A stretch of 60,468 bases of DNA, counting the filler, from Chiloscyllium plagiosum (Eukaryota): NCBI RefSeq assembly GCF_004010195.1. It is 5 parts of 5 records of this genome, joined end to end, with 100 filler letters (N's around TTAATTAATTAA, not from the genome) between each part and the next. Parts side by side here need not be neighbours in the genome. Positions count along the whole stretch, not along the records: positions 1 to 25,655 come from NC_057720.1; 4 more parts are not named here. One strand, given 5' to 3'. This document shows, piece by piece, positions 9,672 through 55,983 of this stretch (its first letter is position 1; each line of letters starts with the position of its first letter). The notes beneath the pieces are model-generated. The model did not search any database. It saw nothing but the letters and a program-made list of their open reading frames with translations, and was not told the DNA's origin. The translations under genes and the position numbers were made by a program.

Positions 9672-9923
9672 TTGTTTTTTTTAAAACAAAATACATGCAA
9701 CTATCATGTGAAACAGACCTGAAGCTACTCAAATGTACTTCCAAAGAAGCTATTCAGCAAAACAAATATCCCAAGATGTGTATGTGTCCATGTTTAAGCA
9801 GATCCTCATGTAAAGACATGATCCCATGTGTTCGGGCTGTGCAAGCTGATACCAGGATCCAGTCTCAGCCTCCAGCAGGATACCAACAGGCGGAAGCTGT
9901 AAGTCTGCCCCTTCCGATGGCCA

Positions 9924-9929
9924 TATAAA
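9924..9929 (+). promoter_or_regulatory. TATA box of the IgH V promoter
   Basis: TATAAA 93 bp upstream of the leader ATG at 10017. Confidence 0.65.
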
Positions 9930-10016
9930 TCCTGGGCACTAAACCGTTATTCAACACTCCTGCGTCGGCTCTGTTTAGAAAGATCTTGACAGAACCGTTT
10001 CCCACAAGTTATCAGA

Positions 10017-10065
10017 ATGATTGTGTCGACACTTTTTCTCAGTTTGTTACTGACTTTCTTATCAT
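10017..10065 (+). pseudogene. IGHV: IgM heavy-chain leader exon (MIVSTLFLSLLLTFLS-C)
   Basis: Hydrophobic 16-codon signal peptide, phase-1 donor GTGAGT at 10066, 127-bp intron to an AG acceptor at 10191-10192. Confidence 0.9.
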
Positions 10066-10192
10066 GTGAGTGATTTTTATTCAAGTCTCTCTTTGTGACT
10101 GTCTCAATGTTAGTCTACCGCAGGAATGTAAAAGACACAGCTATCATTTCATCAGCATTAATGCTCATGGTTTATTTGTTTTCTTTTTAAAG

Positions 10193-10552
10193 GTGTCCAG
10201 TCGGGGGTTGTTTTGACCCAGCCAGAGGCAGAGACTGGCCGTCCCGCAGGCAGCCTGAAACTGACCTGTAAAACCAGCGGTTCGATCTTAGCAGCTACTG
10301 GATGAGCTGGGTCCGACAGGTTCCCGGACAGGGTCTGGAGTGGCTGCTGAACTACTATAATTCAAACAGCAATAACTATGCAACAGCGATTAAGGGTCGA
10401 TTTACTGCGTCCAAAGACACTTCAAACAACATTTTCGCGTTGGACATGGGGAACCTGAAGATCGAAGACACCGCCATCTATTACTGTGCAAGATAGTTGG
10501 GGTGACTATCTTGCTGACTGGGGCCAAGGGACCATGGTGACAGTGACTTCAG
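10193..10552 (+). pseudogene. IGHV: Pre-joined (germline-joined) IgM VH-D-JH exon, frameshifted
   Basis: [25 protein letters not shown] / [22 protein letters not shown]...DTAIYYCAR followed 10 nt later by DYLADWGQGTMVTVTS and a GTAAG donor; no RSS between V and J; 1-nt loss at ~10280 (TGA at 10303) and TAG at 10494. Confidence 0.93.
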
Positions 10553-12681
10553 GTAAGAACTTTGAACTTTCTTAGTGACTGTTTAAAAAACATTCTATTC
10601 ATGTGACTAATTTCTGAATTAAATGAAACTCAGATTCTGTGCTGAGTTTGGTTTAGTTCGGATTGATTTTTGTTCAGACTGATTTATAGACCAGTTAAGG
10701 CTCAGCAAATAGTTACAATGGTGATGATGGAGTCAGTTGCTCGGTGTATCTCTTTTTTTGGATCAGATGGGCATTCTGTGTGGCTGGGTTACTTGAAGCA
10801 CCTAATGTCTCTTAATCAGTCAGGTATAAATAATGTTTAATGTCAGTGACACCCTGACTGTGTGTTTTATTATCAGCAACAAATGCTAAGAATTTAAAGA
10901 TATTTGAAATATTACCAAACATGATTAAAATATGTTAAAATATCATTATTCATTTCTTGCATATATTCCCCGTATAATGTTCTTACTATGGTTATATTTT
11001 CTCATTTATTTTGTTAATTTTGTTGATGGCAAGCAGGTTAGAAACTGTCAGAAAATTTTCCTGCTGTGCTATATTTCATTCTGTTTTTATTAGATTCTGA
11101 GTTTGTTTTACTTGGTTTTGTTGAATTGTGTTGATTGGCTTTTGAAATTGTTTTATTTGATTCTGTTGAATTGAATTGCTTGGATTCTGATTATCATTCA
11201 TTTAAATCTGTTGTTTTGAGTTGATTGCATTCTGATTTTATTTTCCTTGATTCTGTTGAATTGAGTTGATTGGATTCTTATTCAATTTGTGGACTTGATC
11301 TGCGTTTTCATGCTTTCTGTAATTGGTGTTTTCTTTCTGGTGAGGAGATAGTCTCTCTGGATTACTTTTCATTACCAATATTTGTGAAGTTCTTTGTTTT
11401 TCATTAATCATTTCTGGATTTGTTAAACTCATGACATATTTTTCTCTGCTTGATTGAAAACATTACATCTGTTTGTAACTGTCTGAAAACCAACTTAAGT
11501 CAGAAACACGGAAGTGTGAAAAATGAAATGGAAACGAGTTTTTAATGCACTGACTTTTTAAAAAAAAACTGAGTTCTAATGTAAACTAAATGAATTTTGT
11601 TTTGAGTAGCCTCATTCAAAATAAAATTTGGGACTAAAATCTGAAACTGCAGAATTGATCAGATTACGTAATTGAAACTAACTTAAAATTATAATGTGGT
11701 AATATTTGTCCATTCAAATAATTTTGTTTTGACCTTGAAGTGATTAATCAATATATGCCTTCAACCGCTCTACTGTAGACTGCACAAGATTGTCCTGATC
11801 AGGAAGGGTGTACAGGTTGGAAATAAATTGAACTGTTGCTGGAAACGTTACAGCTTTAAGTGTTAAGTCCCCTCACAGACAGGCTACTGTTTTGACTTGT
11901 TATTTCTTGTTATGACTGTTCAAGTTAATCATTAGTTTGCTTGATTCTGAGTAGTTTTGTTAGATTTCAATTTCTGTTTTTTGGTGAGGTTACACCAAGT
12001 TCTTGGTTGTGTTGGAAATGTTTGCAGAGCGAGTTCTGCTGCAAACACACCGTGTTGTGATTTGGTGATCTTTGCTCTGTTGAGGAGGGAGTGTGTTTTA
12101 GAAATGAAGGGAAAACAGATACCTTCGGGCGCCATTTTTACTTAGAAGTAGTAATTAAGGCTTAATCTAATCCATGCTTTACAATCCAAATTCAGAACTA
12201 AACTGTCTAGTTCATTTACAAGGTCTGTCTTTAAACAGATTACAAGCCATAGAGAAATATAAATAGAATTTCAAAAGTCTAATGTTCTAATAGTTCTTGC
12301 TCTTGAGCAAAAATGCCATGACAGTGTTATAATTGATCAAGAAACACCTTTCAATTCTGCTGTACACTACATACAATTTTTCAGGCTGGAAAAGATCATT
12401 GGCAAAGACCATTTGGAAATTCTGCTCAATTCTATCAAGAACAGATCAGTTTCACTGCTTTGAATTGTTTCACAAGTAACTTGAGTTAATTAATCGTTAT
12501 GTCCCTGATTAAACTGAATTTGCAGGATAAAAATAAAACATTAACTGAATTATTTAATCTGCACAGTGCTTTAGGTGTTCCCCAACTGAAGAGTCATTCT
12601 TTTGGAAACAACTGCTATTGTGAATTATGTGGCCAAGACCAAATTTCAAATTAATTAAAATAATCCACTCATGAATTCGCA

Positions 12682-13030
12682 GGGCAACATGATGGCTCAG
12701 TGGTTAGCACTGCTGCCTCACAGCGCCAGGGTCCCAAATTCAATTCCACCCTCGGATGACTGCCTGTGTGGAGTTTGTACATTCTCCCTGTGTCTGCGTT
12801 GGTTTCCTTCGGACGCTCTGGTTTCCTACCGCAGTCCAAAAGATTGTGCAATTTAGCACAGCCATAGTGTTCAGGGATGTGGAGGTTAGGGTGCATATAA
12901 GTATACACTTATACATATAAGTGTAAATATAAGTTAGGGGGAATGGTCTGAGTGGGCTACTTACTGTTCGGAGGGTCAGTGTGGAATTGTTGGGCCAAAT
13001 GGCCTGTTTCCATACTGTAGGAACTCTATT
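12682..13030 (+). mobile_element. HE1-type SINE (duplicate at ~16891-17235)
   Basis: tggctcagtggttagcactgctgcctcacagcgccaggg head, V-domain core, ggcctgtttccatactgtagg tail. Confidence 0.85.
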
Positions 13031-13265
13031 CTTAAAACCATAGGAGTATTTGCTGCAAACGCAGAGAATGTATTTTACATCAATGTGTTCAGACATATGC
13101 AGAGTTCACAAATTTGCAGAAGACATGAACTAGAGGATAACAGAGCACTTTGTTTGTTCAAACACTGAAAATAGAGTAATATTTATTTTAATTAATATAC
13201 TTGACCGATTATTGCAATGTAGCTATCGGAAGGAATCTGCTCACATTGGTTAAGTGTGACAATCA

Positions 13266-13537
13266 TTTAGATTAGATTTCCTGCAGTATGTATCGGGCCA
13301 TTTGGCCCAGCAAGTCCACACCGATCCTCTGAAGAGTAACTTACTCAGACCCATTAGGTGACTGATGCACCTAGCATTATGGACAATATAACATGACCAC
13401 TTCACCTGACGTGCACATCTTTAGATTGTGGGAGGAAACCCACACAGACACAGGGGAGAATGTGAAAACTCCACACAAACAGTCGCCCGAGGCTGGAACC
13501 AAGCCCGGGTACCTGGATCTGTGAGACAGCAGTGCTC
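13266..13537 (-). mobile_element. HE1-type SINE (duplicate at ~17474-17745)
   Basis: ttagattagatt tail, gtgggaggaaacccacacagacacaggggagaatgtg core, degenerate tRNA-like head. Confidence 0.8.
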
Positions 13538-13956
13538 TCCACGAAACTGCCTACATTTACTTAGACATCCGTTAAAGCGGGCAGCTCCAGATGGAAGCAT
13601 GTTTTTAATTCATACCTTTTTTTTAATACATTAAAAGCAGCTAACAAGAAAATGAACTTGCACTAATTTCTTCAATAGAAATGCATTTCCACACTGAATG
13701 TTGTTTTAGCTTTATGCAGTGCATGCAATATCTCCACAGTTCAAGAAATGTTTTAAGAATATGTAAAAAATAATTTAGAGAATAATCCATTTCCTCCGGG
13801 GCTGTGCTTGAATTGGCGATATATCCCACCTCAATAATTTTGTTAATTACAATGACTTATTAAGTTTAAACTCATTGGTTATCAATGTTCATTGTGAACA
13901 CATTCTTGTTCACATTAATCCTCTGGTTAGTTCCTCTGATGAATGTTCAATTACAG

Positions 13957-14252
13957 TAAATACTTGATGTGAGGAATTGAGCAGATGTATTTGTTCGGAT
14001 CAAGGCTGTTGTACAGTTTGTTTCAGTGCTATCTCTGACTAACTTGACAACTTGTGCTGACCATTTGTAAATTGTCCAGTTCGGATACCTGTATCTCAGA
14101 CAGTTAAATACTTGATGTGAGGAATTGAGCAGATGTATTTGCTAGGATCAAGGCTGTTGTACAGTTTGTTTCAGTGCTATCTCCGGCTAACTTGACAACT
14201 TGTGCTGACCATTTGTAAATTGTCCAGTTCGGATACCTGTATCTCAGACAGT
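13957..14252 (+). repeat. 148-bp tandem duplication present only in the first 4-kb unit
   Basis: taaatacttgatgtgaggaattgagcagatg at 13957 and 14105; single copy in unit 2 (~18166). Confidence 0.9.
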
Positions 14253-16890
14253 TCAATTTTATCTTGCACTTCAAAACCACTTTTATCAGAAATGCAATAT
14301 TCGATTAGGTGCTTCAGAATTGAGAGCCCTGACTAAGTTGTAGCAATCAGAACGAACGTTTCAGGAACAAAAGGCAGATTATAAGAGTTTTGAAATTGGT
14401 TGTTGGCAACAAGGGATATTGATTGAGCGAGGCAGAGGGAGATGTGCTACATATTTTCTTTGTGCCTCAGTTATCCGGGACATGTTTAGTGGCACAATGC
14501 AGAAGCAGAAATTATTTTGCATCCTATTATTTAAAAACCTATCATCAGCTTTTAATGTCACTGGCAACGGTCATAATACACTTCAAAACATTTAAATCTA
14601 TTTCAGACTAAGATCATCTGGTGCAGTAACATTCACAGGGCTAAGAGGAAGGGAGATCTAGGTTGAAATCCAGTGACAGTGAATAGATGGCAATGCAATT
14701 CCTAGTTTTATTCTTCTGCAGTTCCCATAGAATTTGAACAAATCTGAGCTGCTGTCAAAGTATTATTGGATAAATGTTGAAATGTTACTTTTATTGTACA
14801 AACATTCTGGAACAGTCTCTGGTTGTTGGAAGGTGTTAATAACTAACATGGTTTGTGCACTGTCAAACAGGTGGGCTGTGTTCTCCGCGATAGTGTCGAG
14901 CTCATTGTGTTCAGGTCTGTTGTGGTTTGTAATAGGGTCCCTGATTCTGTGGCAGGTGGCCTGTGTTCACTTACAACCTGTAAGAGAGGTATGTAACACC
15001 ATCTCTTATCAGGTTACTTCAGTGCAAGAAAGCAGATTGACATGTTTGGGTGCTTGTTGGAATTCCACTCACAGAGGCCAGTGAAATCTACTCAATTCGC
15101 TGTCCTGACTTGTGTCTCTTAGATATTAAATAGAATTTTGGCGGTTAGCAGCTTTTTCCAGATCAAAATTTGTTCACAAGCTTTTGGGTATCGCTAGATG
15201 GGGTTAATGGAGTAAGTGCTCAAAGAAATCCCAGCTTTTTACTTCCTGTTCTAACAATATCATTTATAACTAAACCAGAATGAATCATTTTCGAAGCATA
15301 TTTGATGAGATTATGCTTAGGCTGTTTTACTTTATATTAAACCAGTGCTGTAGCTGAATTTGATTGTTTAGTACGGTGGGGGTTCCGCTGAATCCAACAC
15401 TTGCAGCAGATGGTGATAGCTTTTCAATTGGTCTTCAATTGCTATCTCAGACCATCCAGTACCTCTGCTAAGAATCCTTTTTCCAACAGGAGTCAAGCCA
15501 ACATAATCGCTGTCTAACTCAGCAGGTGTGACCTCTGGTGCCAAACACATGAAAACAATTTGCTGAAGTTCTAATGTAAACTAAATGAATTTTGTTTTGA
15601 GTAGCCTCATTCAAAATAAAATTTGGGACTAAAATCTGAAACTGCAGAATTGATCAGATTACGTAATTGAAACTAACTTAAAATTATAATGTGGTAATAT
15701 TTGTCCATTCAAATAGTTTTGTTTGACCTTGAAGTGATTAATCAATATATTCCTTCAACCGCTCTACTGTAGACTGCACAAGATTGTCCTGATCAGGAAG
15801 GGTGTACAGGTTGGAAATAAATTGAACTGTTGCTGGAAACGTTACAGCTTTAAGTGTTAAGTCCCCTCACAGACAGGCTACTGTTTTGACTTGTTATTTC
15901 TTGTTATGACTGTTCAAGTTAATCATTAGTTTGCTTGATTCTGAGTAGTTTTGTTAGATTTCAATTTCTGTTTTTTTGTGAGGTTACACCATGTTCTTGG
16001 TTGTGTTGGAAATGTTTGCAGAGCGAGTTCTGCTGCAAACACACCGTGTTGTGATTTGGTGATCTTTGCTCTGTTGAGGAGGGAGTGTGCTTGGGTAATA
16101 TTAAATTAGTTATATTTGGGAAACAGTTTCTGGTTTCTACATTGTTTTTGCACTGTTTATATGGTTGGTGACAGTGAACTGCTCCAGGGTTCCTCATTCA
16201 ATGCAATCAGCATGCCCGTTGAAATTTCATAAAGCCTAATATTAAGTGAAAGCTAAATCGCAAAGGTTTTGGAAATGAAGGGAAAACATATACCTTCGGG
16301 CGCCATTTTTACTTAGAAGTAGTAATTAAGGCTTAATCTAATCCATGCTTTACAATCCAAATTGAGAACTAAACTGTCTAGTTCATTTACAAGGTCTGTC
16401 TTTAAACAGATTACAAGCCATAGAGAAATATAAATAGAATATCAAAAGTCTAATGTTCTAATAGTTCTTGCTCTTGAGCAAAAATGCCATGACTGTGTCA
16501 TAATTGATCAAGAAACACCTTTCAATTCTGCTATACACTACATACAATTTTTCAGGCTGGAAAAGATCATTGGCAAAGACCATTTGGAAATTCTGCTCAA
16601 TTCTATGAAGGACAGATCAGTTTCACTGCTGTGAATTGTTTCACAAGAGTTAATTAATTGTTATGTCCCTGATTAAACTGGATTTGCAGGATAAAAATAA
16701 AACATTAACTGAATTATTTAATCTGCACAGTGCTTTAGGTATTCCCAATCAGTGCGTTTAAATAAATAGTTACATTTTACAACAAATTATCAACTGAAGA
16801 GTCATTCTTTTGGAAACAACTGCTATTGTGAATTATGTGGCCAAGACCAAATTTCGAATTAATTAAAATAATCCACTCATGAATTCGCAG

Positions 16891-17745
16891 GGCAACATGA
16901 TAGCTCAGTGGTTAGCACTGCTGCCTCACAGCGCCAGGGTCCCAAATTCAATTCCACCCTCAGATGACTGCCTGTGTGGAGTTTGTACATTCTCCCTGTG
17001 TCTGCGTTGGTTTCCTTCGGGCGGTCTGGTTTCCTACCGCAGTCCAAAAGATTGTGCAATTTAGCACAGCCATAGTGTTCAGGGATGTGGAGGTTAGGGT
17101 GCATCTAAGTATACACTCATACATATAAGTGTAAATATAAGTTAAGGGGAATGGTCTGAGTGGGCTACTTACTGTTCGGAGGGTCAGTATGGAATTGTTG
17201 GGCCAAATGGCCTGTTTCCATACTGTAGGAAATCTTCTCTTAAAACCATGGGAGTAGTTGCTGCAAACGCAGAGAATGTATTTTACGTCAATGTGTTCAG
17301 ACATATGCAGAGTTCACAAATTTGCAGAAGACATGAACTAGAGGATAACAGAGCACATTGTTTGTTCAAACACTGAAAATAGAGTAATATTTATTTTAAT
17401 TAATATACTTGACCGATTATTGCAATGTAGCTATCGGAAGGAATCTGCTCACATTAGTTAAGTGTGACATTCATTTAGATTAGATTTCCTGCAGTATGTA
17501 TCGGGCCATTTGGCCCAGCAAGTCCACACCAATCCTCTGAAGAGTAACCTACTCAGACCCATTAGGTGACTGATGCACCTAACATTATGGACAATATAAC
17601 ATGACCACTTCACCTGACGTGCACATCTTTAGATTGTGGGATGAAACCCACACAGACACAGGGGAGAATGTGAAAACTCCACACAAACAGTCGCCCGAGG
17701 CTGGAACCGAGCCCGGGTACCTGGATCTGTGAGACAGCAGTGCCC
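16891..17745. mobile_element. Duplicated pair of oppositely oriented HE1 SINEs in the second 4-kb unit
   Basis: Near-identical to 12682-13537. Confidence 0.85.
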
Positions 17746-20700
17746 TCCACGAAACTGCCCACATTTACTTAGACATCCGTTAAAGCGGGCAGCTCCAGAC
17801 GGAAGCATGTTTTTAATTCATACCTTTTTTTAAATACATTAAAAGCAGCTAACAAGAAAATGAACTTGCACTAATTTCTTCAATAGAAATGCATTTCCAC
17901 ACTGAATGCTGTTTTAGCTTTATGCAATGCATGCAAAATCTCCACAGTTCAAGAAATGTTTTAAGAATATGTAAAAAAATAATTTAGAGAATACTCCATT
18001 TCCTCCGGGGCTGTGCTTTCATTGGCGATATATCCCACCTCAATAATTTTGTTAATTACAATGACTTATTAAGTTTAAATTCATTGGTTATCAATGTTCA
18101 TTGTGAACACATTCTTGTTCACATTAATCCTCTGGTTAGTTCCTCTGATGAATGTTCAATTACAGTAAATACTTGATGTGAGGAATTGAGCAGATGTATT
18201 TGCTAGGATCAAGGCTGTTGTACAGTTTGTTTCAGTGCTATCTCTGACTAACTTGACAGCTTGTGCTGACCATTTGTAAATTGTCCAGTTCGGATACCTG
18301 TATCTCAGACAGTTCAATTTTATCTTGCACTTCAAAACCACTTTTATCAGAAATGCAATATTCGATTACATGCTTCAGAATTGAGAGCCCTGACTAAGTT
18401 GTAGCAATCAGAAAGAACGTTTCAGGAACAAAAGGCAGATTATAAGAGTTTTGAAATTGGTTGTTGGCAACAAGGGATATTGATTGAGCGAGGCAGAGGG
18501 AGATGTGCTACATATTTTCTTTGTGCCTCAGTTATCCGGGACATGTTTAGTGGCACAATGTAGAAGCAGAAATTATTTTGCATCCTATTATTTGAAAACC
18601 TATCATCAGCTTTTAATGTCACTGGCAACGGTCATAATACACTTCAAAACATTTAAATCTATTTCAGAGTAAGATCATCTGGTGCAGCAACATTCACAGG
18701 GCTAAGAGGAAGGGAGATCTAGGTTGACATCCAGTGACAGTGAATAGATGGCAATGCAATTCATAGTTTTATTCCTTTGCAGTTTCCATAGAATTTTAAC
18801 AAATCTGAGCTGCTGCCAAAGTATTATTGGATAATTTTTGAAATGTTACTTTTATTGTACAAACATTCTGGAACAGTCTCTGGTTGTTGAAAGGTGTTAA
18901 TAGCTAACATGGTTTATGCACTGTCAAACAGGTGGGCTGTGTTCTCCGTGATAGTGTCGAGCTCATTGTGTTCAGGTCTGTTGTGATTTGTAGTAGGGTC
19001 CCTGATTCTGTGCCAGGTGGCCTGTGTTCACTTACAACCTGTTAGAGAGGTATGTAACACCATCTCTTATCAGTTTACTTCAGTGCAAGAAAGCAGATTG
19101 ACATGTTTGGGTGCTTGTTGTAATTCCACTCACAGAGGCCAGTGAAATCTACTCAATTCGCTGTCCTGACTTGTGTCTCTTAGATATTAAACAGAATTTT
19201 GGCGGTTAGCAGCTTTTTCCAGATCTAAATTTGTTCACAAGCTTTTGGGTATCGCTAGATGGGGTTAATGGAGTAAGTGCTCAAAGAAATCCCAGCTTTT
19301 TACTTACTGTTCTAACAATATCATTTATAACTAAACCAGAATGAATCAGTTTCGAAGCATATTTGATGAGATTATGCTTAGACTGTTTTACTTTATATTA
19401 AACCAGGGCTGTAGCTGAATTTGACTGTTCAGTACGGTGGGGGTTCCACTGAATCCAACACTTGCAGCAGATGGTGATAGCTTTTCAATTGGTCTTCAAT
19501 TGCTATCTCAGACCATCCAGTACCTCTGCTAAGAAACCTTTTTCCAACAGGAGTCAAGCCAACATAATCGCTTTCTAACTCAGCACCTCTTGTGCCAAAC
19601 GCATGAAAACAATTTGCTGAAGAGGGGGGTCTCTGGAAGTGAAAGGTTAACCTTGCTTTCTCTCCACAGGAGCTGCCAGACCTGCTGAGTTTCTTCAGCA
19701 ATTTCTGTCTCTATGTTGGTTTTCTAGCATTTAAAGTTTGTTGTTTCATTGAAAAAAGTTCTGTTCGATGAAAGACGTTCTTCAGAGAGAAGATGCATTT
19801 GAACAAATTGCGAATGTTCAGAGATATTAAATATCAGAGAATCATTGAATTTGAGCGCCCTGATCTCGAGCTGTAGTTTCACAAGAAACTATCATGAAGT
19901 AACAACACACTCCAGAGCGCAGGGGCTGTTGTAATTGGGTGAAAGTTATTTTGATCACTCAAATAGAGAATATCAATGATCCCGTTCCAAATAATCAAAG
20001 AAGGGTTTTTTTTAAAGCATGTGTGAAACAATTAATTTGTTGAAATATTTTAATAAAAAGTGTTCACCGCCAGTGCTAGCTTAATGAATGACACAATGAT
20101 AGGAAGGTAGGAGCAAGAGGAGCGCACTCAGCCCCTTGAGCTATTCCACCACTTACTTAGATCATGGTGCATCTGTGAGCCAAATCCAGAGATCTCCCTT
20201 TGGCTAAAACTCTTTAATGCCTTTGATTAACAAGTAAAATCTATCCCAGATTTAATGATTCGACTGCCCATAACAAAGGGAGACACCATTTCTGAAAGAC
20301 ATTTCTGTGAGTATTTAAAGTGACACAATGAGGCTGGAATTAATTGCTCATGAAAGTAAGCTTTAAATCTCTGACAATTTCCAATTGAAGCATCCCAATC
20401 ATCATATTCCATTAGTTTAGCACTATACTTCCCTGGAATAAAGAAATATAATGTGTGATGGCTTTGCTAAAAATGAGGGAAGCTTCATTCCCATTATATG
20501 ATTAAGAAATAGCTCTGTTCATTCAGTGAAAACACAGTCAAATCACCCAGAAGGAAACCATGTCATCTTGTGTAGACACACAAGTACCTCAAATAATTTT
20601 CAATTCTTCCAGTGGTTGTTTGCATCTCTAGACAGGTGTGGAAGTGTCAGACGTTTTATTTCGCCTTGAGAAACCAGTTGTCATCAGCGTATTTGAATTG

Positions 20701-21049
20701 CTGAAGTTTGTGTGGTATTAGCACATTCACAGCACTGTTAGAAAGTGAGTCCCATGGCTGTGATTGAGGAAGAGGAAAGGGGCGGGGAAATAGTTGAGAG
20801 TCAAGTTGAAGTCTAATTTGGAGGAAAGCTCTCAGGTGAAACATTTACATGCATGTGGGCCCTTATCCTCAAAGATCACAGTTTTGGAACATGCTGCCGA
20901 AGGGACATGTCAGCATACAGAATGGAAGCTGAAGAAGGCACCTCGGCCCCTCTAGAAGGCTATTCCATTCATGGGATCGTCAGAAATCTTGCTGCTCACC
21001 AGTCTTCCCAACACACCGATAACATTGAACCTGATTGTTTACTGTTCAA

Positions 21050-21661
21050 CAAAAGAATGGTGAACCTTTGGAATTCTCCGCCACAGAAATTGATTGAGGT
21101 CAAAACATTAAATGATTTCAAGAAGGAGATAGATTCCTTCAATCCTTAAAAGAAAATGCTACGGATGTGTGGGAGGAAGGCAGGCAGGGTATAATATTGG
21201 CTGAAAGCCATGAAAACATTGAATGGGGCATGGTTTGTAAGTTTGTACGGAACGCCAACGTTGATAGTATAATTGGCAGTGAAAGTTATCTAAACGTACA
21301 ATGAGATCTTGATCAGCTGGGCCAATGGGCTGAGGAGTGGCAGATTGCGTTTAATTTAAATGAATACGAAATGTTGCTTTTTGAGAAGATAAATCAGGTC
21401 ACAACTTCAGAGTTAATGGTAGGGCACTGGGTAGTGATGTTGAACACAGGGCCCTGAGGTTCAGACTCATAGATTCTTGAAAGCGTTGTCTCAAGTAGCT
21501 CGTGTGTTTAAGGTGTTTGGCAAATGTACCTTCATTGGTCAGAGCACTGAGTGCAGGAGTTGGGGCTTCATGTTGTAACTGTCCAAAACATTGGAATGAA
21601 CTGCCAGAGGAAGTGGTAAATGCAGAGATAGGTCCAACATTTGGAAGCCATTTGAACAGCT
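21050..21661 (+). mobile_element. Patchwork of degenerate CR1 fragments
   Basis: RMVNLWNSPPQKLIEVKTLNDFKKEID and WNELPEEVV motifs. Confidence 0.65.
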
Positions 21662-22242
21662 NNNNNNNNNNNNNNNNNNNNNNNNNTCACTGACTTTATG
21701 GTGGAGTAGGCTCAAAGTTTGAAGGTGGTGAGCAAGTGAGGGGCTAGATTGGGCATGTGGGAGAGTTTGGGCTGGTAGCCTGTGAGGTGTTGGCTGGCTG
21801 CTGGGTAAGCCTGCATGCACTCTGTCTGGCAAGGTGGCATCAAGGTAAATTGTAATGATCACAGGTTTATTTGGTCAAATTGTGCTTGGTCGGTTAGGGG
21901 TAGTTTGAGCTGAAAGGCAGGAGGCCTGTCTTTGCCAGGCTGGTTAGTGTAGAGGTGGGCAGGATGCCAGGTTGTTGCGGGGGTGGAAGGTCACTGTAAT
22001 GAAGTGACAGGTGGACGTGATGTCAAAATGCAAAGCTCGGAGTCTGGAAAATGGCAGGTGGTAAAGCACAGATGCGAAGGGAGCACAATGTGCACAGGTT
22101 GACTTGGGTAACATGTGAGGTCAGAGGTTGTGCAAATTACGGTACCAGGTCCCAGTCAGGACCAGATTCATCATGGACCAGGTGCAGGGTGGCAGGAGTG
22201 GAAATGAGTGAAAAGAATTGAGATTATATGTCTATCTGGAAT

Positions 22243-22912
22243 ATAGAACATAGAACATTACAGTGTTCAAACTTTGATGTTGCACCGACCTGTGGAACCA
22301 ATCTGAAGCCTGTCTATCCTGCACTATTCCATTTTCATCCATATGTTTATCCAATGACCTTTTAAATGCCCTTAAAGTTGGCGAGTGTCCAATTTTTGCA
22401 GGCAGTGCATTCCTGAGTAAAGAAACAACCTGTGACACCTGTCCTCTATCTATCTATCAGCCCTCAATGTAAAGCTATGTCTCCTCCTGCTAGCCATCAC
22501 CATCCAAGGAAAAAGACTTTCACTGTCCACCCTCTGTTTATCTTTTATGTCTCAATTAAGTCACCTCTGAACCTTCTTCTCTGATAAAAACAGCCTCAAG
22601 ACCCTCGTCCTTTCCTCCTAAAACCTTCCCGCCATACCAAGCAACATCCTGGTAAACCTCCTGCGAACTCTTCCAAAGCTTCCACATTCTCCCGAGAATG
22701 AGGTGACTAGAAAAGTACACAATACTCCAAGTACGGCCACACCAGAGTTTTTTACAGCTGCAGCCCAACCTCATGGTTCTGAAACTCAGTCCCTCTATCG
22801 ATGAAAGCCAACACAAAGTATGCCTTGTTAACAACCCTATCAAATTGGCTGGCAACATTTAGGGATCTATGTACATAGACACTGAGATCTCTCTGCTCAG
22901 CTACACTACCAA
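22243..22912 (-). mobile_element. CR1-type LINE 3' fragment
   Basis: tagaacatagaacat tail; LRAFKRSLDKHMD and LNVASQFDRVVNKAYFVLAFI motifs on the minus strand. Confidence 0.8.
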
Positions 22913-23463
22913 TATGGATTGCCTTGGATGTGTTTCTTGTGATATGGGTTGTGTGTTCCGGGCATGAATGGGTATGTAACAGGGTAGGGTTTGTCAGAGT
23001 GAATGGAAATTTAGGTCTAGACAGAGAGTAAGTGCAGTGGTTAGTCTGAGAGACGTGGTTTGGTGGTGAACTGCGTATCAGTTTGATAGTTATTAAAGTT
23101 AAAGAGTACTTGTTCATTTCTCAAATCATATTTACGTAAACACTCAGGTGTAACACTCCAAAGTCTCTGAACCTTAATGGTCCTCCACTTTTCAGAGGCC
23201 TCGAAATTCAGATAATTGTAAATTAGAAGTTTCAACTTTCAGACAATTGGCATGAGGTCAGCCGTGACAGCCATCCTCCTAGTCCCAGTGCTCAGCTCCT
23301 GCCTGTACTGCTGCTGCAGTGACCTTCCTCCCAGAGAGAACAGTCTGCCTTGCATTGATAAGTGAGGAAGGCTCACTGGACCTGATTCACTCTGATTTCT
23401 CTCCGTTGGGTATTTCCAGCAATATCTGTTTTATTTTTGATGTCCAGCAGTACTGTGCCTAGT

Positions 23464-23782
23464 GGGGCAGCACGCTGATTCCGTGGTTAGCATTGCTGCC
23501 TCACAGTGCTAGGGACTCGGGTTCGATTCCAACTTCGGGTGACTGTCTGTGTGGAATTTGCACTTTCTCCCCGTGTCTGTATGGGTTTCCTCCCACAGTC
23601 CAAAGATGTGCAGACTGGGTGAATTGGCCATGTTGTGTTCAGGAATTGGGAGGTTAGGTGCATTAGTTAGGGTTAAATGTAGAGTAATAAGGTAGGGGAA
23701 TGGGTCTGGTTGAGTTACTTTTCAGAGGGTGGGTGTGGACTTGGGCCAAATGGCCTGTTTGCACACACTGTAGAATTTCTAT
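23464..23782 (+). mobile_element. HE1-type SINE
   Basis: gtggttagcattgctgcctcacag head, B box GGTTCGATTCC, V-domain core. Confidence 0.85.
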
Positions 23783-24082
23783 GAATCTGCATATCATTGG
23801 TTTGTATTTACTGAAATCTCTCTGCTCTTCACTTGCAATCCACTGAAAGTGTCAGTTGGTGAGATCTTCAAACAGATACTGGTGTGGGATCAGGATGTTC
23901 TTCTTCCTTAATTATGGTAATGGTCAAGGTAGAGGGCCAGCAATTGGTAGGAAACAAAAATAAACTCCAGTTATGCTGTAAACTTCAGCGGGTGCATACT
24001 GGCAAACGTTTACAGATGAGGATACATTTGATAAGGTCAAATTAACAGAAACTAACATGCTCAATTGGTCATTCTATTGTAG

Positions 24083-24388
24083 AGACACCGTCTCCCCCCA
24101 CACTTTATGGCCTGGTCTCCTCCTGTCAGGAGCACAACACCGGTTCTCTGATCTTTGGTTGTTTGGCGATGGACTATTCCCCTGACGTCACCAAGGTAAC
24201 CTGGAAGAAAGGTGAGGAGCTGATCACGACTGGATTGAAGACTTACCCATCAGTGAGAAACAAGAAGGGAACCTACACCCTGAGCAGCCAGTTAACCCTG
24301 CCTGGGTCAGCGGTAGATTTCCCCAGTGAAATCTACTGTGAGGTTCAACACAGCGGGTCACACAAGAGCAAAGAAATGCCATGTGTTG
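24083..24388 (+). CDS. IGHM: IgM heavy-chain constant domain 1 (Cmu1) exon, open reading frame
   Basis: (E)[42 protein letters not shown]...[18 protein letters not shown]...YCEVQHSG resembles shark Cmu1; AG acceptor at 24081-82, phase-1 GTAAGT donor at 24389; downstream CH exons not in this piece. Confidence 0.9.
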
Positions 24389-25655: not shown

Positions 25656-25755
25656 NNNNNNNNNNNNNNNNNNNNNNNNNNNNNNNNNNNNNNNNNNNNT
25701 TAATTAATTAANNNNNNNNNNNNNNNNNNNNNNNNNNNNNNNNNNNNNNNNNNNN
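25656..25755. other. Artificial assembly spacer (44N-TTAATTAATTAA-44N)
   Basis: Identical 100-bp structure also at 31734-31833, 53250-53349 and 58287-58386; TTAATTAATTAA gives stops in all six frames. Confidence 0.95.
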
Positions 25756-30237: not shown

Positions 30238-30286
30238 ATGATTTCACACATCCAGCTGATCTGGCCCCTGGCATTCTGTGTCGCAG
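30238..30286 (+). CDS. IGKV: Ig kappa (NS4-type) leader exon MISHIQLIWPLAFCVA-G
   Basis: ACCATG start, phase-1 GT donor at 30287, 186-bp intron. Confidence 0.9.
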
Positions 30287-30472
30287 GTACAAATCTCTCT
30301 CCTTCCACCTTGAATTTTTAGCTGCTCTCCATTTCACTCCAATTCCACTGATTTGTGATTGAAGGAAAAAAGCTGAAACCAGAGGAATGCTCAGTGTCTC
30401 CAACAATCTCTCATTTGACAGGCTCTTTCTGTGACAGTTCTGACTTCACTGTGTTTCTCTCTGATCCCTCAG

Positions 30473-30771
30473 GTATCAGTGGGGACATCACCATGACCCA
30501 GTCTCCCCCGGTCCTGTCAGTGGGACTGGGCCAGATCGCAACCATCACCTGTACGGCCAGTCAAGGTATTACAGATGACCTCATCTGGTACCAGCAGCGA
30601 GAAGGTCAAAAACCCTCTCTCCTGATCTATGAAGCAACAACTCGATTCACAGGAGTCTCCGATCGATTCACCGGCAGTGGATATGGGACCAGTTTCACCC
30701 TGAAAATCAGCAACGTTCAGAATGAGGATGTCGCTGACTATTACTGTATGCAGTATAACAGCTACCCTTGA
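30473..30771 (+). CDS. IGKV: Unrearranged Ig kappa V segment
   Basis: [52 protein letters not shown], both Cys and Trp intact; followed by a 12-RSS. Confidence 0.95.
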
Positions 30772-30799
30772 CACAATGATACAGAGCCATACAAAAATC
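30772..30799 (+). promoter_or_regulatory. 12-bp-spacer recombination signal sequence (V)
   Basis: Heptamer CACAATG, spacer atacagagccat (12 bp), nonamer ACAAAAATC; V-12/J-23 is the kappa configuration. Confidence 0.92.
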
Positions 30800-31180
30800 T
30801 CAAATCACACAGAATCACCTCCTGTACTGACACATCCACAGTTATATAAAATGCATAATAATGGACACACAGTCCCACTGCCTGAACTGACATATCCCAC
30901 AGTTAGATACAAATGAAACTGAACAAATTACCCCATGCTGGGATGGTCACTGTCTGCTACACACTCCAGTCCCTGTGGTGTCTCAATGCTCACTAAAGGC
31001 CTCAAGTTTCCCTCTTCCACTCCATGGCCACATGTGAAGAACAGCTGCAAGATTTAACAACGAAAAATAAAGTTCACAACCCAGAGGCAGAGACAGAAAG
31101 ACACAAAAAGAGGGTGAGAATGATCAACAGACTGGGAGATAGGGAGAGGGTGAGAGTGACAGAGGGAAGCAGAGAGCAGA

Positions 31181-31219
31181 GGTTTTTGTATAGCCTCTGC
31201 ACTGGAAGCTCTCACTGTG
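31181..31219 (-). promoter_or_regulatory. 23-bp-spacer recombination signal sequence (J)
   Basis: GGTTTTTGT, 23 bp, CACTGTG: consensus RSS. Confidence 0.95.
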
Positions 31220-31254
31220 GCTTACGTTCGGTAAAGGAACCAAGCTCAGACTGA
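31220..31254 (+). CDS. IGKJ: Unrearranged Ig kappa J segment ([11 protein letters not shown])
   Basis: FGxG motif; GTAAGT donor at 31255. Confidence 0.95.
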
Positions 31255-31623
31255 GTAAGTAAACCTCAATCCTCCATTAATAACCCTTTCAATACTGAAA
31301 CTTCCTAAAACACAAATGCTGAAATGCTGCAGGTGTTAGTGGGGAGCTGCAGTGAATGAAATGGTTGATGGAGGAGCCCTGTGTCTAACAGGGTGTCCTG
31401 CTGAATTTCTGTAGTCCTATTGCCCCGCTTAAGCAGCAAGATATAAGTCAGTCAGTTTTACTCACCGTGTGGAGGAGCTCTGTCCATTTGCAGCCTGTGG
31501 TCCCATTCCTGCAGCATGGAGTGAAATCAGTGAGTAGCCTCCTGCCAGTCTCAGTGTGACGGACACAGGCAGAGTTTGATGTGAGGTCTGGCTCCCTGTC
31601 CCAGTCTCTGATCTCACTGACCT

Positions 31624-31655: not shown

Positions 31656-31833
31656 CAGTGAGACACCGAGCTCCCACCTCCCCCAGCTTTAACTCTGCTC
31701 AACCACACAATCACAGAATTGTTACAATGCACANNNNNNNNNNNNNNNNNNNNNNNNNNNNNNNNNNNNNNNNNNNNTTAATTAATTAANNNNNNNNNNN
31801 NNNNNNNNNNNNNNNNNNNNNNNNNNNNNNNNN

Positions 31834-33873
31834 TTTTTTTAAACAGTTTAACACCATCACGGCGGGGTGGGGGGCGGGGGGGTGGGTGTTGGGGAAGAAA
31901 GCAGGAGCATGGCAGTGAGAGAGAGGATCAGCCATGATCATACTGAATGACAGAACAGGCAGAAGAGGCTTAATGGCCGACTTCTTCTCGTAGTTTCTAT
32001 CTTTCCTCTTCTGTATTACCATCAATCTCGACCCCGCTTATTGACATTTCTATTCACGTCTCCTCTGAATAGACTTGGTTACTCTCCTTAGAGCATTGGA
32101 CACTAATGGGTGACTGGAATGAAGTATTTCAAATCATGAGGGGCTTGAATAGGGTGAATAGCTATGGTCTTTTCCCTAGGGTAAAGGTGTCCAAAACAAG
32201 AGGTCTGGTACGTTGGCGGAATTAGCTGCCAGATGAAGTGGTGGATGCTGTTACAATTACAGTATTTTAAAGACATCTGAATGGTTCAATGAATTGGAAA
32301 GGTTCAGAGGGCGATGAGCCAAATTCTAGCAAATTAGAGTAGAGTAATTTAGAATGTCTGGTCAGCAGGATGAGTTGAAACGAATGGTCCTGCTTTTGTG
32401 CTGTACACCTCCATGCCTTCATGAATCTACGCATGGGAACAAGTGCCTTCCAACACGCCCAATCTCTACCTCACATAATCTTATTCTGCTCCACCATATC
32501 TCCCCCGAACCTTCACTGCTCCATGGAAAATACACAGCGTTTCCAATCCATTCTCTTTACCTCAGAATGTCCAGGCCCGACAGTATAATGATAAATCTTC
32601 TCTGCCACCTCTCGAGTCTAATCACATCCTTCTGAAAATGTGTTGACAATCATCTGCCTCTCTGTCACTCCCTCTTTATTTGTCACTCATGCGTTAACAC
32701 CCTCTACATCCAACTCTCTCTCTCTCTTTCTATGTCTCTGTCTCTCTCTCTCACACACCCCTCTCTCTCACACACACAATCTCTCCCTCACTCACACAAA
32801 CCCCCTCTCACCCTTTCCCACATTGTTGCCAGGTAAATCTCCCTCTGCTCTGATTTAGTACTGATGTTGACCCTTGACTCCAGGAGCATGTTTTCTCCTG
32901 GAGAACGGCTTCATTAGCCACACTGGCCAGGTTTCAGCCTCTCACAGGAAGACAGACAGATTTTTTCGAATGGAGGGCAGTTTTGTGCTGTTGACTGGGG
33001 ATTGGTTTAGATATAACCCTCTTTGCATGAAGTCATACTAGAGGGGGGATATAATTAGGCCATCAGTCTGAGCTGTATAAACAATGCCTCTGACCCATTA
33101 AGCCATCCTGCCCATTCACAACATGTCCCTGTCCCTTTCCCTCACGTTTCGCTTTTTGTGATCAGGCTGCAAGTCAGAGCGTTTTACCGGGATAAAATCT
33201 GGACCATCACCACAGTTGCCAGAGAAAAGAAATGAACCCCACAACCATCATGGTTTCCCTGTCTAACAGACTTTCCAATAGTGATCTGTAAGCATGAACC
33301 TCCTGCGGACTGGAGCCTTCAAAACAGACCAGATTCCCATTCACTTTCCAGGGTAGACCGAACAAGAATGGTTTCCTTCCTATTTGACTATTCAACAGAG
33401 AACTCTACACATCAACCTCCTCACATGGACAGCGTTGAGTATTGCCAGCTTCCGACTGGACTCTCCAAATGGACCCCATTTCCAATTGGAACCTCCAATA
33501 GACACCACTGAAAATGAACTTTCTTTACACTAGACCCTCTTATAGTGACCAGTAGCCAATTGAGTTTTTGACGAAGTGACTCAAAAGAGAGATGAAGGGT
33601 TTAGATATAACCCTCTTCTGTATTACCATCAATCTCGACCCCGCTTATTGACATTTCTATTCACGTCTCCTCTGAATAGACTTGGTTACTCTCCTTAGAG
33701 CATTGGACACTAATGGGTGACTGGAATGAAGTATTTCAAATCATGAGGGGCTTGAATAGGGTGAATAGCTATGGTACATATTGTCCATGTGGACTTGGAA
33801 ACATTCCCCCATGACACACTGATTAGTAAAGTTGGATCACATGAGATTCATGGAGATCTAATCATTTCGATAC
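31834..33873 (-). repeat. Inverted copy of the kappa upstream region (matches ~37197-39100)
   Basis: Identical 72-aa ORF-track entry at 32640(+), 38062(-) and 42775(-); reverse-complement identity throughout. Confidence 0.95.
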
Positions 33874-36259: not shown

Positions 36260-37345
36260 TAGGTGGGAAACAGGCCCTTTGGTCGACTCGTCCATGCCAA
36301 CCAGTTTCTAGAACTGAACGAGTCCCCTTTCCCTGTATGTGTCTCAAATTCATCTAAACCTCTCCTTTCAATGTGCCTGTCCTAATATTCTTGAAATGTA
36401 GCAATTGCACTTGTCTCTAACAGTTCCTCTGGCATCTCGTTCCATATAAGGTCCAACATTGTGTGAAAAGGTTGCCTGTCAATTCGCTGCTTAATGTGTT
36501 CTCCAATCGTAAACCTCTGTACTCTACTATTAGACTCTTTTAACTCAAGGGAAAATACTTCGTCTATTCGCTATACCAATGATGCTCATTAGTTCAAGGA
36601 GCCAGGATTGGACTAATGTAGAGAAAGTTAAATACAACACAATACAAGGTTATAGCCCAATAGGTTTATTTAGAAGTACCAGCTTTGGAAGCGCTATTCC
36701 GTCATCAGGTGATTCTTCATCATGGCTCTATAAACATGGACAATATTTCACCTCAGTCTCCTATGATAAAGCAAGAAGAAGTATAGACCTATCCACCTTT
36801 ATCATTCTAACTCTCTAGACTCGATAACATCCTGGTAAATCGATTTTTTATTATTTGTTTCAACAACACTCCCCAGGGTCAGAGCATGTCTTACCAAAAT
36901 GCAACTAACTTACCTAATTTTCCAGAAATTAAGCTCCACCGGTTTTTTTTGATCCGTTGGTACAGTTGATCAAGATGCTTATGTACTCTTCGACAACATC
37001 CTTCTTTGTCCACTATATCTCCAATGAAGGAGTCAGCCACAAATTGATTGAATATTCAAACTATGTTCTCATTCAAATAGTTCATATAAATGATGCACCA
37101 CAGTGGATCCAGGATTGTGCATTGCGTCAGACACAGGCTTCCAATCTTTAATAACAACACTCCACAACCAGACACTTCCTCCTACCAACATTTTTTAGTA
37201 TCGAAATGATTAGATCTCCATGAATCTCATGTGATCCAACTTTACTAATCAGTGTGTCATGGGGGAATGTTTCCAAGTCCACATGGACAATATGTACCGA
37301 TCTCCCTTCATCTCTCTTTTGAGTCACTTCGTCAAAAACTCAATT
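36260..37345 (-). mobile_element. Degenerate CR1 LINE within the minisatellite, with a Penelope-type end inserted at ~36590-36720
   Basis: Homologous to 26931-28038 with the same truncation point (caaaaactcaa); flanked by minisatellite units at ~35940-36200 and ~37350-37670. Confidence 0.7.
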
Positions 37346-43600: not shown

Positions 43601-44629
43601 GGTCGAGATTGATGGTAATACAGAAGAGGAAAGATAGAAACTACGAGAAGAAGTCGGCCATATAAGCCTCTTCTGCCGGTTCTGTCATTCAGTATGATCA
43701 TGGCTGATCCTCTCTCTCACTGCCATGCTCCTGCTTTCTTCCCCAAGTGTTAAACTGTTTAAAAAAACCTCCCTCTTTTTCTTAAATATACTCAGTATCT
43801 TATCCTCCACAACTTTTGTGGTAGAGAATTCCACAGGTTGACCACTTGCTGACGAATGATTTTTCTAACCTCCATCACCCTGTGACTGTGTCCCCTTGTT
43901 ATAGACTCGCCAAACAGGGGAAACCTCCTCTCTGCACCGAGTCTGTCTGGTTCTGGTATAACTTGACATGTTGAAATCAGAAGAGAGTTGAGGAGAAAGG
44001 TTTTCACCCAGAGTGTGCTGGGAGACTAAACTTCACTGCTTGAAACGTTCATAGATTCACAAACTCTCAGAATGTTGAAGTAGGATTTAGATATTCACTT
44101 GTGTTGCTGTCACCTTCAGGGATATGGACCAAGAGCTGGAGAATGTGATTATTATAATCAGCTATTTGTTAACGCACACAGATACACTGACGATGTTCAC
44201 ACCTATTAATGTCAAACCGAGAGATAGTGAGATAGATCGATGCACTTAGTGAGATTGACTGCGAGTGTGAGGAGACATTAAACTGTACGTGACTCAGTGG
44301 TACGAGACTATAGAGATCAGTGAGAGAATGACACAAAGTGGAAGGTGAGAGAGATAAGAGTAAGTCAGGAAGGGATTGAGGGCATAAAGACACAAGGCTG
44401 AAAAGCACGTAGAGAGATCGGTGAAGAAGGATAAGGGAGTGAGAAGCAGCGACAGAGGTAAATACAGATACAGAGAGAGACGGAGAGGGACTAACCAGCA
44501 TTACAATACAGAGATATTGAGAGACAGACATGGAGAGAGACAGAGACAGGAAATAGCTTTGTCATTGGTAAAGGAGAGATTTGTAACTGGAGACAGAAAA
44601 TGAGACAGTAAATCGGTGTAAAATAGACT

Positions 44630-45088: not shown

Positions 45089-45321
45089 CGACGTCAATTG
45101 GTACCAGCAGCGAGACGGTCAGAAACCCTCTCTTCTGATCAGCGATGCAAATTACCGATACACAGGCGTCCCTGAACGGTTCATCGGCAGTCAATTGGGA
45201 ATCAGTTTTACTTTGACAATCAGCAACGTTCAGGAAGAGGATGTCGCTGACTATTACTGTATGCAAGATTATAGCGTGCCTCAAGCACTTTCATTTGGTA
45301 AAGGAACCAAGATCCAACTCA
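45089..45321 (+). pseudogene. IGKV: In-frame pre-joined kappa VJ (3' half; this copy lacks leader and FR1)
   Basis: [77 protein letters not shown], no RSS, GTAAGT donor at 45322. Confidence 0.92.
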
Positions 45322-48570: not shown

Positions 48571-48881
48571 GTGAGAAATACTCGATACTTGATCGTATGC
48601 ATTGTATGATTCTCTGATTCTCTGATTCCAATAAACCTCCCATATACAGTCTGCCCTTCGGTGATAAATCAGTCTCTTCTTCATGTTGAACAATACTTCG
48701 AGGAAGTATTGAAGGTTGTGAGGGCACAGAATGTACGCTGGGTGGGGGACTTCAGTGTCCTTTTGTTGTGTTTTATACATATTGGTTACAAACATTCAAT
48801 CCAACAGTCTTGCAATTTACTGTTCGGAGAATTGAAATACCTTTCAAACACAGGGACTAAAATTGCTTCTTTTTCTTGCAG

Positions 48882-49210
48882 GGCGTGAGAGGTCTCAGCC
48901 CAAGCTGATCCTGCTACCCCCCTCTCTGGAACAGGTCAAGGCCAAGAGTGCTGCCACTCTGATGTGCTTTGTCAATCATTTCTATCCCGCAGAGCTGAAA
49001 GTGCAGTGGAAGAAGAATGGTGCAATCATTTCGGACGGGGTTCAGACAAGCAACTACCTGCGAGCTTCAGACAGCACCTATAGCCTCAGCAGCCTGCTGA
49101 CACTTTCTCGTTCCGATTGGGAGTCCAATGTTCGCTTATCCTGTGACGTCACTCATGTGACCCTCTCCTCTCCCCTCAGCCGGAGCATCAGGAGATCAGA
49201 ATGTGTGTAG
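48882..49210 (+). CDS. IGKC: Ig kappa constant-region exon, intact
   Basis: (R)RERSQPKLILLPPS...LMCFVNHFYP..VQWKKNG..DSTYSLSSLLTLS..WES..SCDVTH..RSECV*; pyrimidine tract and AG acceptor at 48880-81; phase matches the J donors. Confidence 0.95.
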
Positions 49211-55749: not shown

Positions 55750-55798
55750 ATGATTTCACACATCCAGCTGATCTGGCCCCTGGCATTCTGTGTCGCAG
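55750..55798 (+). pseudogene. IGKV: Ig kappa leader exon (identical to 30238-30286)
   Basis: MISHIQLIWPLAFCVA-G; GT donor at 55799; promoter motifs at 55593-55689. Confidence 0.9.
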
Positions 55799-55983
55799 GT
55801 AAAATCTCTCTCCTTCCACCTTGAATCTTTAGCTGCTCTCCATTTCACTCCAATTCCACTGACTTGTGATTGAAGGGAAAATGCTGAAACCAGAGGAATG
55901 CTCAGTGTCTCCAACAATCTCTCATTTGACCGGCTCTTTCTGTGACAGTTCTGACTTCACTGTGTTTCTCTCTGACCCCTCAG

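What the first reader, a model, noticed from the sequence alone, without database searches (positions are those of the whole stretch)
10193..10552. IgM VDJ already joined in genomic DNA
Seen: VH (YYCAR) is fused to JH through 10 nt (tagttggggt) with no RSSs or intersegment DNA. The leader intron and J-C intron are retained, so it is not a retrocopy. Established: sharks carry germline-joined Ig clusters attributed to RAG activity in germ cells. Inference: a heritable V(D)J event with a G-rich D remnant.
Basis: partly seen in the sequence, partly recalled or inferred. Interest (0 to 1): 0.7.

Follow-up and report, generated by a model that had tools for sequence, protein, structure and literature searches.

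The report
Broken pre-joined shark IgM antibody gene
A bamboo-shark-type IgM antibody gene has its variable segments already spliced together at the DNA level, but its reading frame is broken in two places, so it is most likely a dead, probably inherited copy of a kind long known from sharks.

Summary
The join is real. A shark IgM VH runs into JH in one 360-nt exon (10193-10552), with the leader intron and J-C intron kept and a C-mu-1 exon 13.5 kb downstream.

A 1-nt deletion at 10279-10280 gives stops in the leader frame (first TGA at 10303), and the junction puts TAG right after YYCAR with J out of the V frame.

Against unrearranged paralogs the insert is 11 nt, not 10. V lost about 3 nt, J lost none, and the last three bases equal the end of the J heptamer. 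D origin is untested.

It groups with canonical Chiloscyllium IgM (V 91%, CH1 94%), not IgM1gj (64%, 62%). CH2 status cannot be read because the contig ends.

Germline status is inferred, not shown: no listed contig from four runs bridged this junction. Two more joined kappa genes in the window and non-hypermutation-like divergence favour germline. No earlier scan note on it was found.

Verdict: likely a germline-joined IgM pseudogene, a new member of a known kind.

The parts
9924..9929 (+). TATA-like box upstream of the leader
   Evidence: Motif scan; function not tested
10017..10065 (+). Leader exon (MIVSTLFLSLLLTFLS + 1 nt), identical in protein to Chiloscyllium punctatum IgM models
10066..10192 (+). 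Leader intron, 127 nt, GT..AG
   Evidence: spliced paralog contigs skip 127 nt here in run X2 (table 5)
10193..10493 (+). VH segment of canonical IgM family, frameshifted; about 3 germline 3' bases missing
   Evidence: V-set; 91/100 aa to chiPu_0018445 with X at the break; paralog V end from loose ends
10279..10280 (+). 1-nt deletion (GG where paralogs have GGG); first premature stop TGA at 10303-10305
   Evidence: G insertion behind 10278 in contigs of all 4 runs (table 4)
10494..10504 (+). 11-nt junction TAGTTGGGGTG (D remnants and/or N bases, unassigned); TAG stop in V frame; open in J frame; last 3 nt equal J heptamer end
   Evidence: J start fixed by loose ends at 10502 in all 4 runs (table 7)
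10505..10552 (+). JH segment, untrimmed at its 5' end, followed by GT donor
10553..24082 (+). J-C intron (13.5 kb) with an about 4-kb tandem duplication (11572-15568 / 15567-19622) and a 25-N run at 21662
24083..24388 (+). C-mu-1 exon, intact, phase-compatible with J; no further C exon before the contig ends at 25655
   Evidence: C1-set; 94/100 aa to chiPu_0018444, 73-75% to nurse shark IgM, 62% to IgM1gj; tblastn with 9 full-length shark heavy chains finds no CH2-CH4 or TM exon in the window

Best explanation
This is a bamboo-shark-type IgM heavy-chain minilocus whose V and J segments are already fused and whose reading frame is broken, most likely a germline-joined pseudogene made by RAG in a germ-line cell and then inherited. 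Shown: fusion, loss of intersegment DNA, retained introns, a C-mu-1 exon, a frameshift and a junctional stop. Inferred: RAG cut at the RSSs of a split V-D1-D2-J cluster like its closest relative, about 3 nt were lost from V, and 11 nt of D remnant and/or N bases were left. The join was either non-productive from the start or lost two bases later, since its J-frame reading is open. The copy then drifted neutrally, gaining the FR1 frameshift and scattered substitutions. Any transcript would stop at codon TGA 10303 and is predicted to give no antibody.
For: Joined exon with both introns and no RSS at the junction. The closest relative is a split four-domain IgM cluster: the chiPu_0018445 model reads from YYCAR on into RSS-like DHSER…, and its neighbouring tag chiPu_0018444 carries four C domains, so joined is the likely derived state. 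Cys-to-Trp distance is 31 nt, within the 4-17 codon nurse shark CDR3 range (PMC2435157 passage). Two further joined kappa VJ genes lie in the window (45090-45321, 55750-56311), against one clearly split kappa gene; several independent somatic captures in 60 kb would be unlikely (inference). Of 40 listed difference sites (of 127), 6 differ from every overlapping contig in all four runs; they lie upstream of the promoter (9803), in the leader intron (10073, 10137), in V (10383) and in the J-C intron (10863, 10876), not concentrated in V as hypermutation would be. The contig does not look like raw long-read sequence: 98 substitutions against 6 gaps over about 4 kb between the intron duplicates, and CH1 is intact. 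Germline-joined VDJ clusters are established in cartilaginous fish (PMC2193153 and PMC4279169 passages; RAG-type joints in PMC2193156).
Against: No listed contig of the 4 runs laid bridges this junction or matches the locus over a long stretch; table 8 showed 32 pieces with 1716 more hidden. The best run holds 0.33 of the words. Out-of-frame or stop-containing VDJ are common somatic products in nurse shark B cells. The junction ends in GTG, identical to the J heptamer end, whereas Lee et al. found no RSS-derived bases in germline kappa joints. J is untrimmed with no P nucleotides. D origin could not be tested. A review states nurse shark, a relative, has no canonical germline-joined IgM.
Confidence: 0.7

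Rival explanations
1. A non-productive somatic VDJ from a lymphocyte that was captured in the assembly from blood or lymphoid DNA.
For: Nurse shark B cells carry out-of-frame and stop-containing VDJ, and thymus DNA is heavily rearranged (PMC2435157). The exact junction was not seen in the listed contigs of 4 runs. The contig is a short piece among concatenated pieces.
Against: Each somatic joint is clone-specific and rarely wins a bulk consensus (inference). Two more joined Ig genes are in the window. Locus-private differences extend upstream of the promoter, and no unrearranged version with these flank variants was listed in the two DNA-like runs. Contigs drop minority variants, so their silence is weak either way.
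Confidence: 0.14
2. An intact, in-frame germline-joined canonical IgM gene whose two defects are assembly errors.
For: Both lesions sit in simple repeats (a GGG run; AGAGA/GGGG at the junction). The J-frame reading of the junction has no stop ([10 protein letters not shown]), so two more V-end bases would give an open 11-codon CDR3. Leader, splice sites and CH1 are intact.
Against: Needs two independent errors within 220 nt in a contig with a low indel rate elsewhere. V carries changes at residues shared by its relatives (E to G at the mature start, P to T in CDR2/FR3). No matching transcript was listed in the two runs that show spliced contigs, which is weak.
Confidence: 0.08
3. A non-RAG deletion or an assembly mis-join that fused a V (or V-D) end to the last bases of the J recombination signal.
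For: The three bases before J equal the heptamer end and J is untrimmed. Multi-copy Ig families assemble poorly, and this window is a patchwork.
Against: The V RSS is removed within 3 nt of the coding end and the J side lands within 3 nt of the RAG cut site; a random deletion hitting both is unlikely (inference). The first 8 insert bases are not RSS. The full 11-mer occurs nowhere else in the window; one 10-mer match at 3800 on the minus strand lies in retroelement-like sequence and looks like chance.
Confidence: 0.08

Closest known systems
Germline-joined (VDJ//C) IgH clusters of cartilaginous fish, first described in 1988 (as reviewed in PMC2193153, PMC4279169; horn shark as the species is recalled)
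   Same: V and J fused in genomic DNA, intersegment DNA and RSSs gone, introns kept, C exon downstream.
   Different: Here in a bamboo-shark-type genome where I found no published description of a joined IgM; non-productive as assembled; germline presence not directly shown.
Nurse shark germline-joined NS4 (kappa) genes, incl. pseudogenes R6 and R19 (PMC2193156)
   Same: Joined copies derived from split paralogs, coding-end trimming, some of them pseudogenes; the window also holds two joined kappa genes.
   Different: Those are light chains without D, with little TdT activity and no RSS-derived bases; this heavy-chain joint has an 11-nt insert whose last 3 nt match the heptamer.
Nurse shark IgM1gj
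   Same: Fully joined VDJ on an IgM-class gene.
   Different: IgM1gj is in frame, expressed and lacks C-mu-2. This gene is broken, is only 64% (V) and 62% (CH1) identical to it, and groups with canonical Chiloscyllium IgM; CH2 status unknown.
Canonical split IgM cluster of Chiloscyllium punctatum (gene models chiPu_0018445 + chiPu_0018444)
   Same: Identical leader, 91% V and 94% CH1 protein identity; nearest rows on both trees.
   Different: That model's V reads through into RSS-like sequence (split); the window's copy is joined and frameshifted.

Membership tests
Germline-joined shark IgH cluster (VDJ//C) | V and J fused in one exon, intersegment DNA and RSSs absent | tested here: met
   split paralogs show RSSs at both ends (table 7)
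Germline-joined shark IgH cluster (VDJ//C) | Introns and genomic context retained (not a retrocopy) | tested here: met
   Leader intron 10066-10192, J-C intron, CH1 exon at 24083
Germline-joined shark IgH cluster (VDJ//C) | RAG-type coding joint: trimming, D/N/P bases, nothing attributable to RSS | tested here: inconclusive
   V lost about 3 nt; J untrimmed; no P bases; last 3 nt equal heptamer end; D segments unavailable
Germline-joined shark IgH cluster (VDJ//C) | Present in non-lymphoid DNA and in more than one individual | tested here: inconclusive
   No listed contig bridges the junction in 4 runs; contigs drop variants and the runs may be of another species
IgM heavy chain (mu) | VH and CH1 of the mu lineage | tested here: met
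   Named CH1 hits are shark IgM, 67-73%; trees place it with Chiloscyllium IgM models at 90/92 (CH1) and 83/90 (V), not starred. No IgW sequence was retrieved for a direct comparison.
IgM heavy chain (mu) | C-mu-2 to C-mu-4, secretory and TM exons downstream | not testable with these tools
   Contig ends 1.27 kb after CH1 at an N-linker; no genome held
IgM1gj | In-frame, productive germline VDJ | tested here: not met
   Frameshift and stops
IgM1gj | Sequence orthology to nurse shark IgM1gj | tested here: not met
   V 64/100, CH1 60/97; does not group with it on either tree
IgM1gj | Lack of C-mu-2 | not testable with these tools
   Downstream exons are outside the contig
Somatic lymphocyte VDJ | Restricted to lymphoid DNA, low read support, mutations focused on V | tested here: inconclusive
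   Source reads not available; the 6 fully private differences among 40 listed are spread over flank, introns and V

The most novel reading that the evidence does not exclude
Bamboo sharks carry a recently arisen, originally productive germline-joined canonical IgM gene (an 11-codon CDR3 that is open in the J frame), independent of IgM1gj, that is still intact in living animals or segregates as intact, broken and absent alleles. That would give a young, datable germ-line RAG event at a heavy-chain locus in a laboratory shark.
Probability: 0.1. Interest if true: 0.55.

Novelty: new member of a known kind. Interest (0 to 1): 0.2.

Why it matters
Germline-joined Ig clusters have been known in cartilaginous fish since 1988, so one more broken copy changes little. 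Its modest value: a review states that nurse shark has no canonical germline-joined IgM, and I found no description of one in bamboo sharks, so a confirmed copy would add a lineage-specific heavy-chain event next to a close split relative. That would allow dating and a test of whether TdT acts in germ-line joining. It also matters for annotation: the locus should not be counted as a functional IgM cluster.

Tried and rejected
Whole-genome search for D segments and sister clusters: no genome is held.

D sequences from the literature: Table 1 of PMC2435157 gave no text and its supplements could not be read; they may hold the D1/D2 sequences needed to parse the insert. One metagenome scan for a conserved V-end 22-mer found 0 loci.

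Run search: no RNA holder listed on record; this is no evidence on expression.

Joint 10488 to 10502 in runs X1, X6 and X9 (depths 183.8, 40, 14.3): considered as evidence of a shared joined gene and set aside as inconclusive. What lies between is 'not known', and its J side starts at the same base as split paralogs, so a split cluster explains it equally.

X1 and X2 show spliced joints and exon-heavy depth, so they were not used as germline evidence.

Retrocopy rejected (introns kept). IgM1gj orthology rejected. Templated insertion from nearby DNA not supported. Raw long-read error as a general property of the contig not supported.

IgH-kappa physical linkage in this window is not claimed, because N-linkers separate the pieces.

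PDB searches gave mammalian, camelid-type or engineered antibody chains among the 60 rows shown per search and did not help class assignment.

Literature searches for a bamboo shark joined IgM found none; the library lacks most subscription journals.

Full report
Observation. The window holds a shark immunoglobulin heavy-chain gene on the + strand: leader exon 10017-10065, a 127-nt GT-AG intron, and one 360-nt exon (10193-10552) in which a V-set domain ending YYCAR runs through a short insert into a JH ending VTVTS and a GT donor. The strict RSS scan of the window found none between 8374 and 25924, although it did find the RSSs of a split kappa gene at 30772 and 31219. A relaxed scan of 10401-11600 gave 6 weak hits, all in the J-C intron. 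A phase-compatible, intact C1-set exon lies at 24083-24388. So the join exists in the assembled sequence and the gene is not a retrocopy.

The exon cannot code for an antibody as assembled. The 5' part of V and the rest of V are in different frames. One G is missing at 10279-10280, and paralog contigs in all 4 runs laid carry it (table 4). The leader frame stops at 10303, 10348 and 10456. The V frame stops at TAG 10494, directly after YYCAR, and J is one base out of the V frame. The two shifts cancel (exon length is a multiple of 3), so J and CH1 are in the leader frame again, but behind three stops.

Junction anatomy. Loose ends of paralog contigs give the split configuration (table 7). In run X6, 6 contigs continue from 10493 with GAA and a CACAGCG heptamer (agreement 0.84). 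In all four runs (5, 3, 2 and 1 contigs) J is preceded by sequence that completes the heptamer CACTGTG, with J starting at the base matching 10505. Hence V lost about 3 nt, J lost none, and the insert is 11 nt (10494-10504), not 10. Its last three bases, GTG, equal the heptamer end. This may be chance (1 in 64 for uniform bases, more if G-rich), but it keeps a non-RAG deletion open, since PMC2193156 (section 22 read) found no RSS-derived bases in germline kappa joints. There are no P nucleotides on J. The Cys-to-Trp distance is 31 nt, inside the nurse shark CDR3 range of 4-17 codons (PMC2435157 passage). In the J frame the insert is open ([10 protein letters not shown]), so the join may once have been productive and lost two bases of an AGAGA repeat; this is inference. 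No D sequence could be obtained, so the 'D remnant' is untested.

Identity. CH1 is 94/100 and 92/100 identical to Chiloscyllium punctatum models, 73-75% to nurse shark IgM and 62% to IgM1gj. V, read with X at the break, is 91/100 to chiPu_0018445 and 64/100 to IgM1gj. Both trees (16 rows each) place the window with the Chiloscyllium models, at 90/92 for CH1 and 83/90 for V (below the tool's starred level), and away from IgM1gj. No IgW sequence was retrieved for direct comparison. The nearest V model reads on from YYCAR into RSS-like sequence, so it looks split, and the neighbouring locus tag encodes four C domains and a TM region. The window is therefore from a bamboo-shark-type genome; I did not determine the species. 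CH2-CH4 are not in the window: tblastn with 9 shark heavy chains finds only V, J and CH1 at high identity, and the contig ends at 25655 at an N44-TTAATTAATTAA-N44 linker, one of four.

Germline or somatic. The direct test was inconclusive. Of 24 runs listed, none holds more than 0.33 of the words of 9700-11000. I laid 4 of them. X1 and X2 show spliced leader-V joints and exon-heavy depth, so they contain RNA. X6 and X9 look like DNA and come from one study. No listed piece bridges the junction or matches the locus closely over a long stretch (32 pieces shown, 1716 hidden). The runs may be of another species or of individuals without the locus, or the contigs may have dropped it; contigs cannot show absence. 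A joint from 10488 to 10502 in X1, X6 and X9 has unknown content and is equally explained by a split cluster.

Indirect evidence favours germline. Two more joined kappa genes lie in the window, one in frame but 5'-truncated (45090-45321) and one out of frame with a stop and Cys-to-Trp change (55750-56311), against one clearly split kappa gene; a fourth kappa V at 40477 runs into a gap. Of the 40 difference sites shown (127 in all), 6 differ from every overlapping contig in all four runs, and they are spread over the upstream flank, leader intron, V and J-C intron rather than focused on V. The 4-kb tandem duplication in the J-C intron shows 98 substitutions and 6 gaps, unlike raw long reads. 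Against: out-of-frame and stop-containing VDJ are common in nurse shark B cells, and rearranged IgH is absent from red-cell DNA there.

Mechanism. Shown: fusion, loss of the intersegment DNA, retained introns, two reading-frame lesions. From established shark biology (PMC2435157 introduction read; PMC2193156; PMC2193153 passages): miniloci of V, two D and J about 400 bp apart are joined by RAG, and germ-line activity can fix joined copies. Inferred: a split canonical IgM cluster was joined in a germ-line cell, was inherited, and decayed. Odds: germline pseudogene 0.70, somatic capture 0.14, intact gene with assembly errors 0.08, non-RAG deletion or mis-join 0.08.

Comparison with the known. 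It looks like a VDJ//C germline-joined cluster and meets the two structural features tested; joint chemistry and heritability are inconclusive. It is not IgM1gj by frame or sequence. Papers seen: PMC2435157 (passages, section 5, first part of section 8; supplements unreadable), PMC2193156 (passages, section 22), PMC2193153, PMC5192425 and PMC4279169 (passages), PMC12227049 (passages, section 6), PMC8692893 (passages and supplement search: 37 IgM clusters in white-spotted bamboo shark, pre-joined D in IgNAR clusters, no IgM configuration in the passages seen), PMC7677710 (term search: no 'IgM' in main text), PMC2192082 (reference list only). [quoted passage not shown] Eight searches found no description of a joined IgM in bamboo sharks; most subscription journals are not in the library. 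Four look-ups of earlier scan notes found nothing on this feature.

Verdict. A real joined IgM VDJ exon, broken as assembled, probably a germline-joined pseudogene: a new member of a long-known kind. Interest 0.2.

Noticed in passing
window 25656-25755, 31734-31833, 53250-53349, 58287-58386: Four identical 100-nt linkers (N44-TTAATTAATTAA-N44) show that the window is a concatenation of contigs, so neighbourhood of the IgH and kappa genes is not evidence of linkage.
   Followed up: yes
window 55750-56311 (+): Joined kappa-type VJ with leader intron, no RSS, out-of-frame junction, TGA in V and Cys-to-Trp change; closely related to the split kappa gene at 30238-31257 (33 substitutions in 527 nt).
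   Followed up: partly
window 45090-45321 (+): Joined kappa-type VJ, in frame at the junction (…[22 protein letters not shown]) but 5'-truncated by repeat-like DNA; a kappa-type C exon follows near 48880-49207.
   Followed up: partly
window 30238-31257 (+): Split kappa-type V-J pair with a 12-spacer RSS at 30772 and a perfect 23-spacer RSS at 31219.
   Followed up: partly
window 11572-19622: About 4-kb tandem duplication, 2.5% diverged, inside the J-C intron; real duplication or two haplotypes/paralogs assembled in tandem.
   Followed up: partly
window 58620-58946 (-): Separate C1-set Ig exon, not IgM; atlas neighbours include SIRP/SHPS1-named clusters.
   Followed up: partly
proteins P0005 (chiPu_0016370) and P0060 (XP_048454621): Genome-predicted models in Chiloscyllium punctatum and whale shark that read V directly into J; may be other joined VDJ exons or prediction artefacts.
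   Followed up: no
protein P0019 (chiPu_0018911): C. punctatum model in which a similar CH1 is followed directly by a CH3-like domain, i.e. lacking CH2; gene-model artefact not excluded.
   Followed up: no
protein P0001: A shark IgM CH1 fragment annotated as a Salmonella hypothetical protein on a 480-nt contig, probably contamination of a bacterial assembly.
   Followed up: no
window 31834-33599, 37304-39100, 42017-43746: Three about 95% identical copies of a 1.7-1.8 kb repeat, the first inverted relative to the others, among the kappa genes.
   Followed up: no
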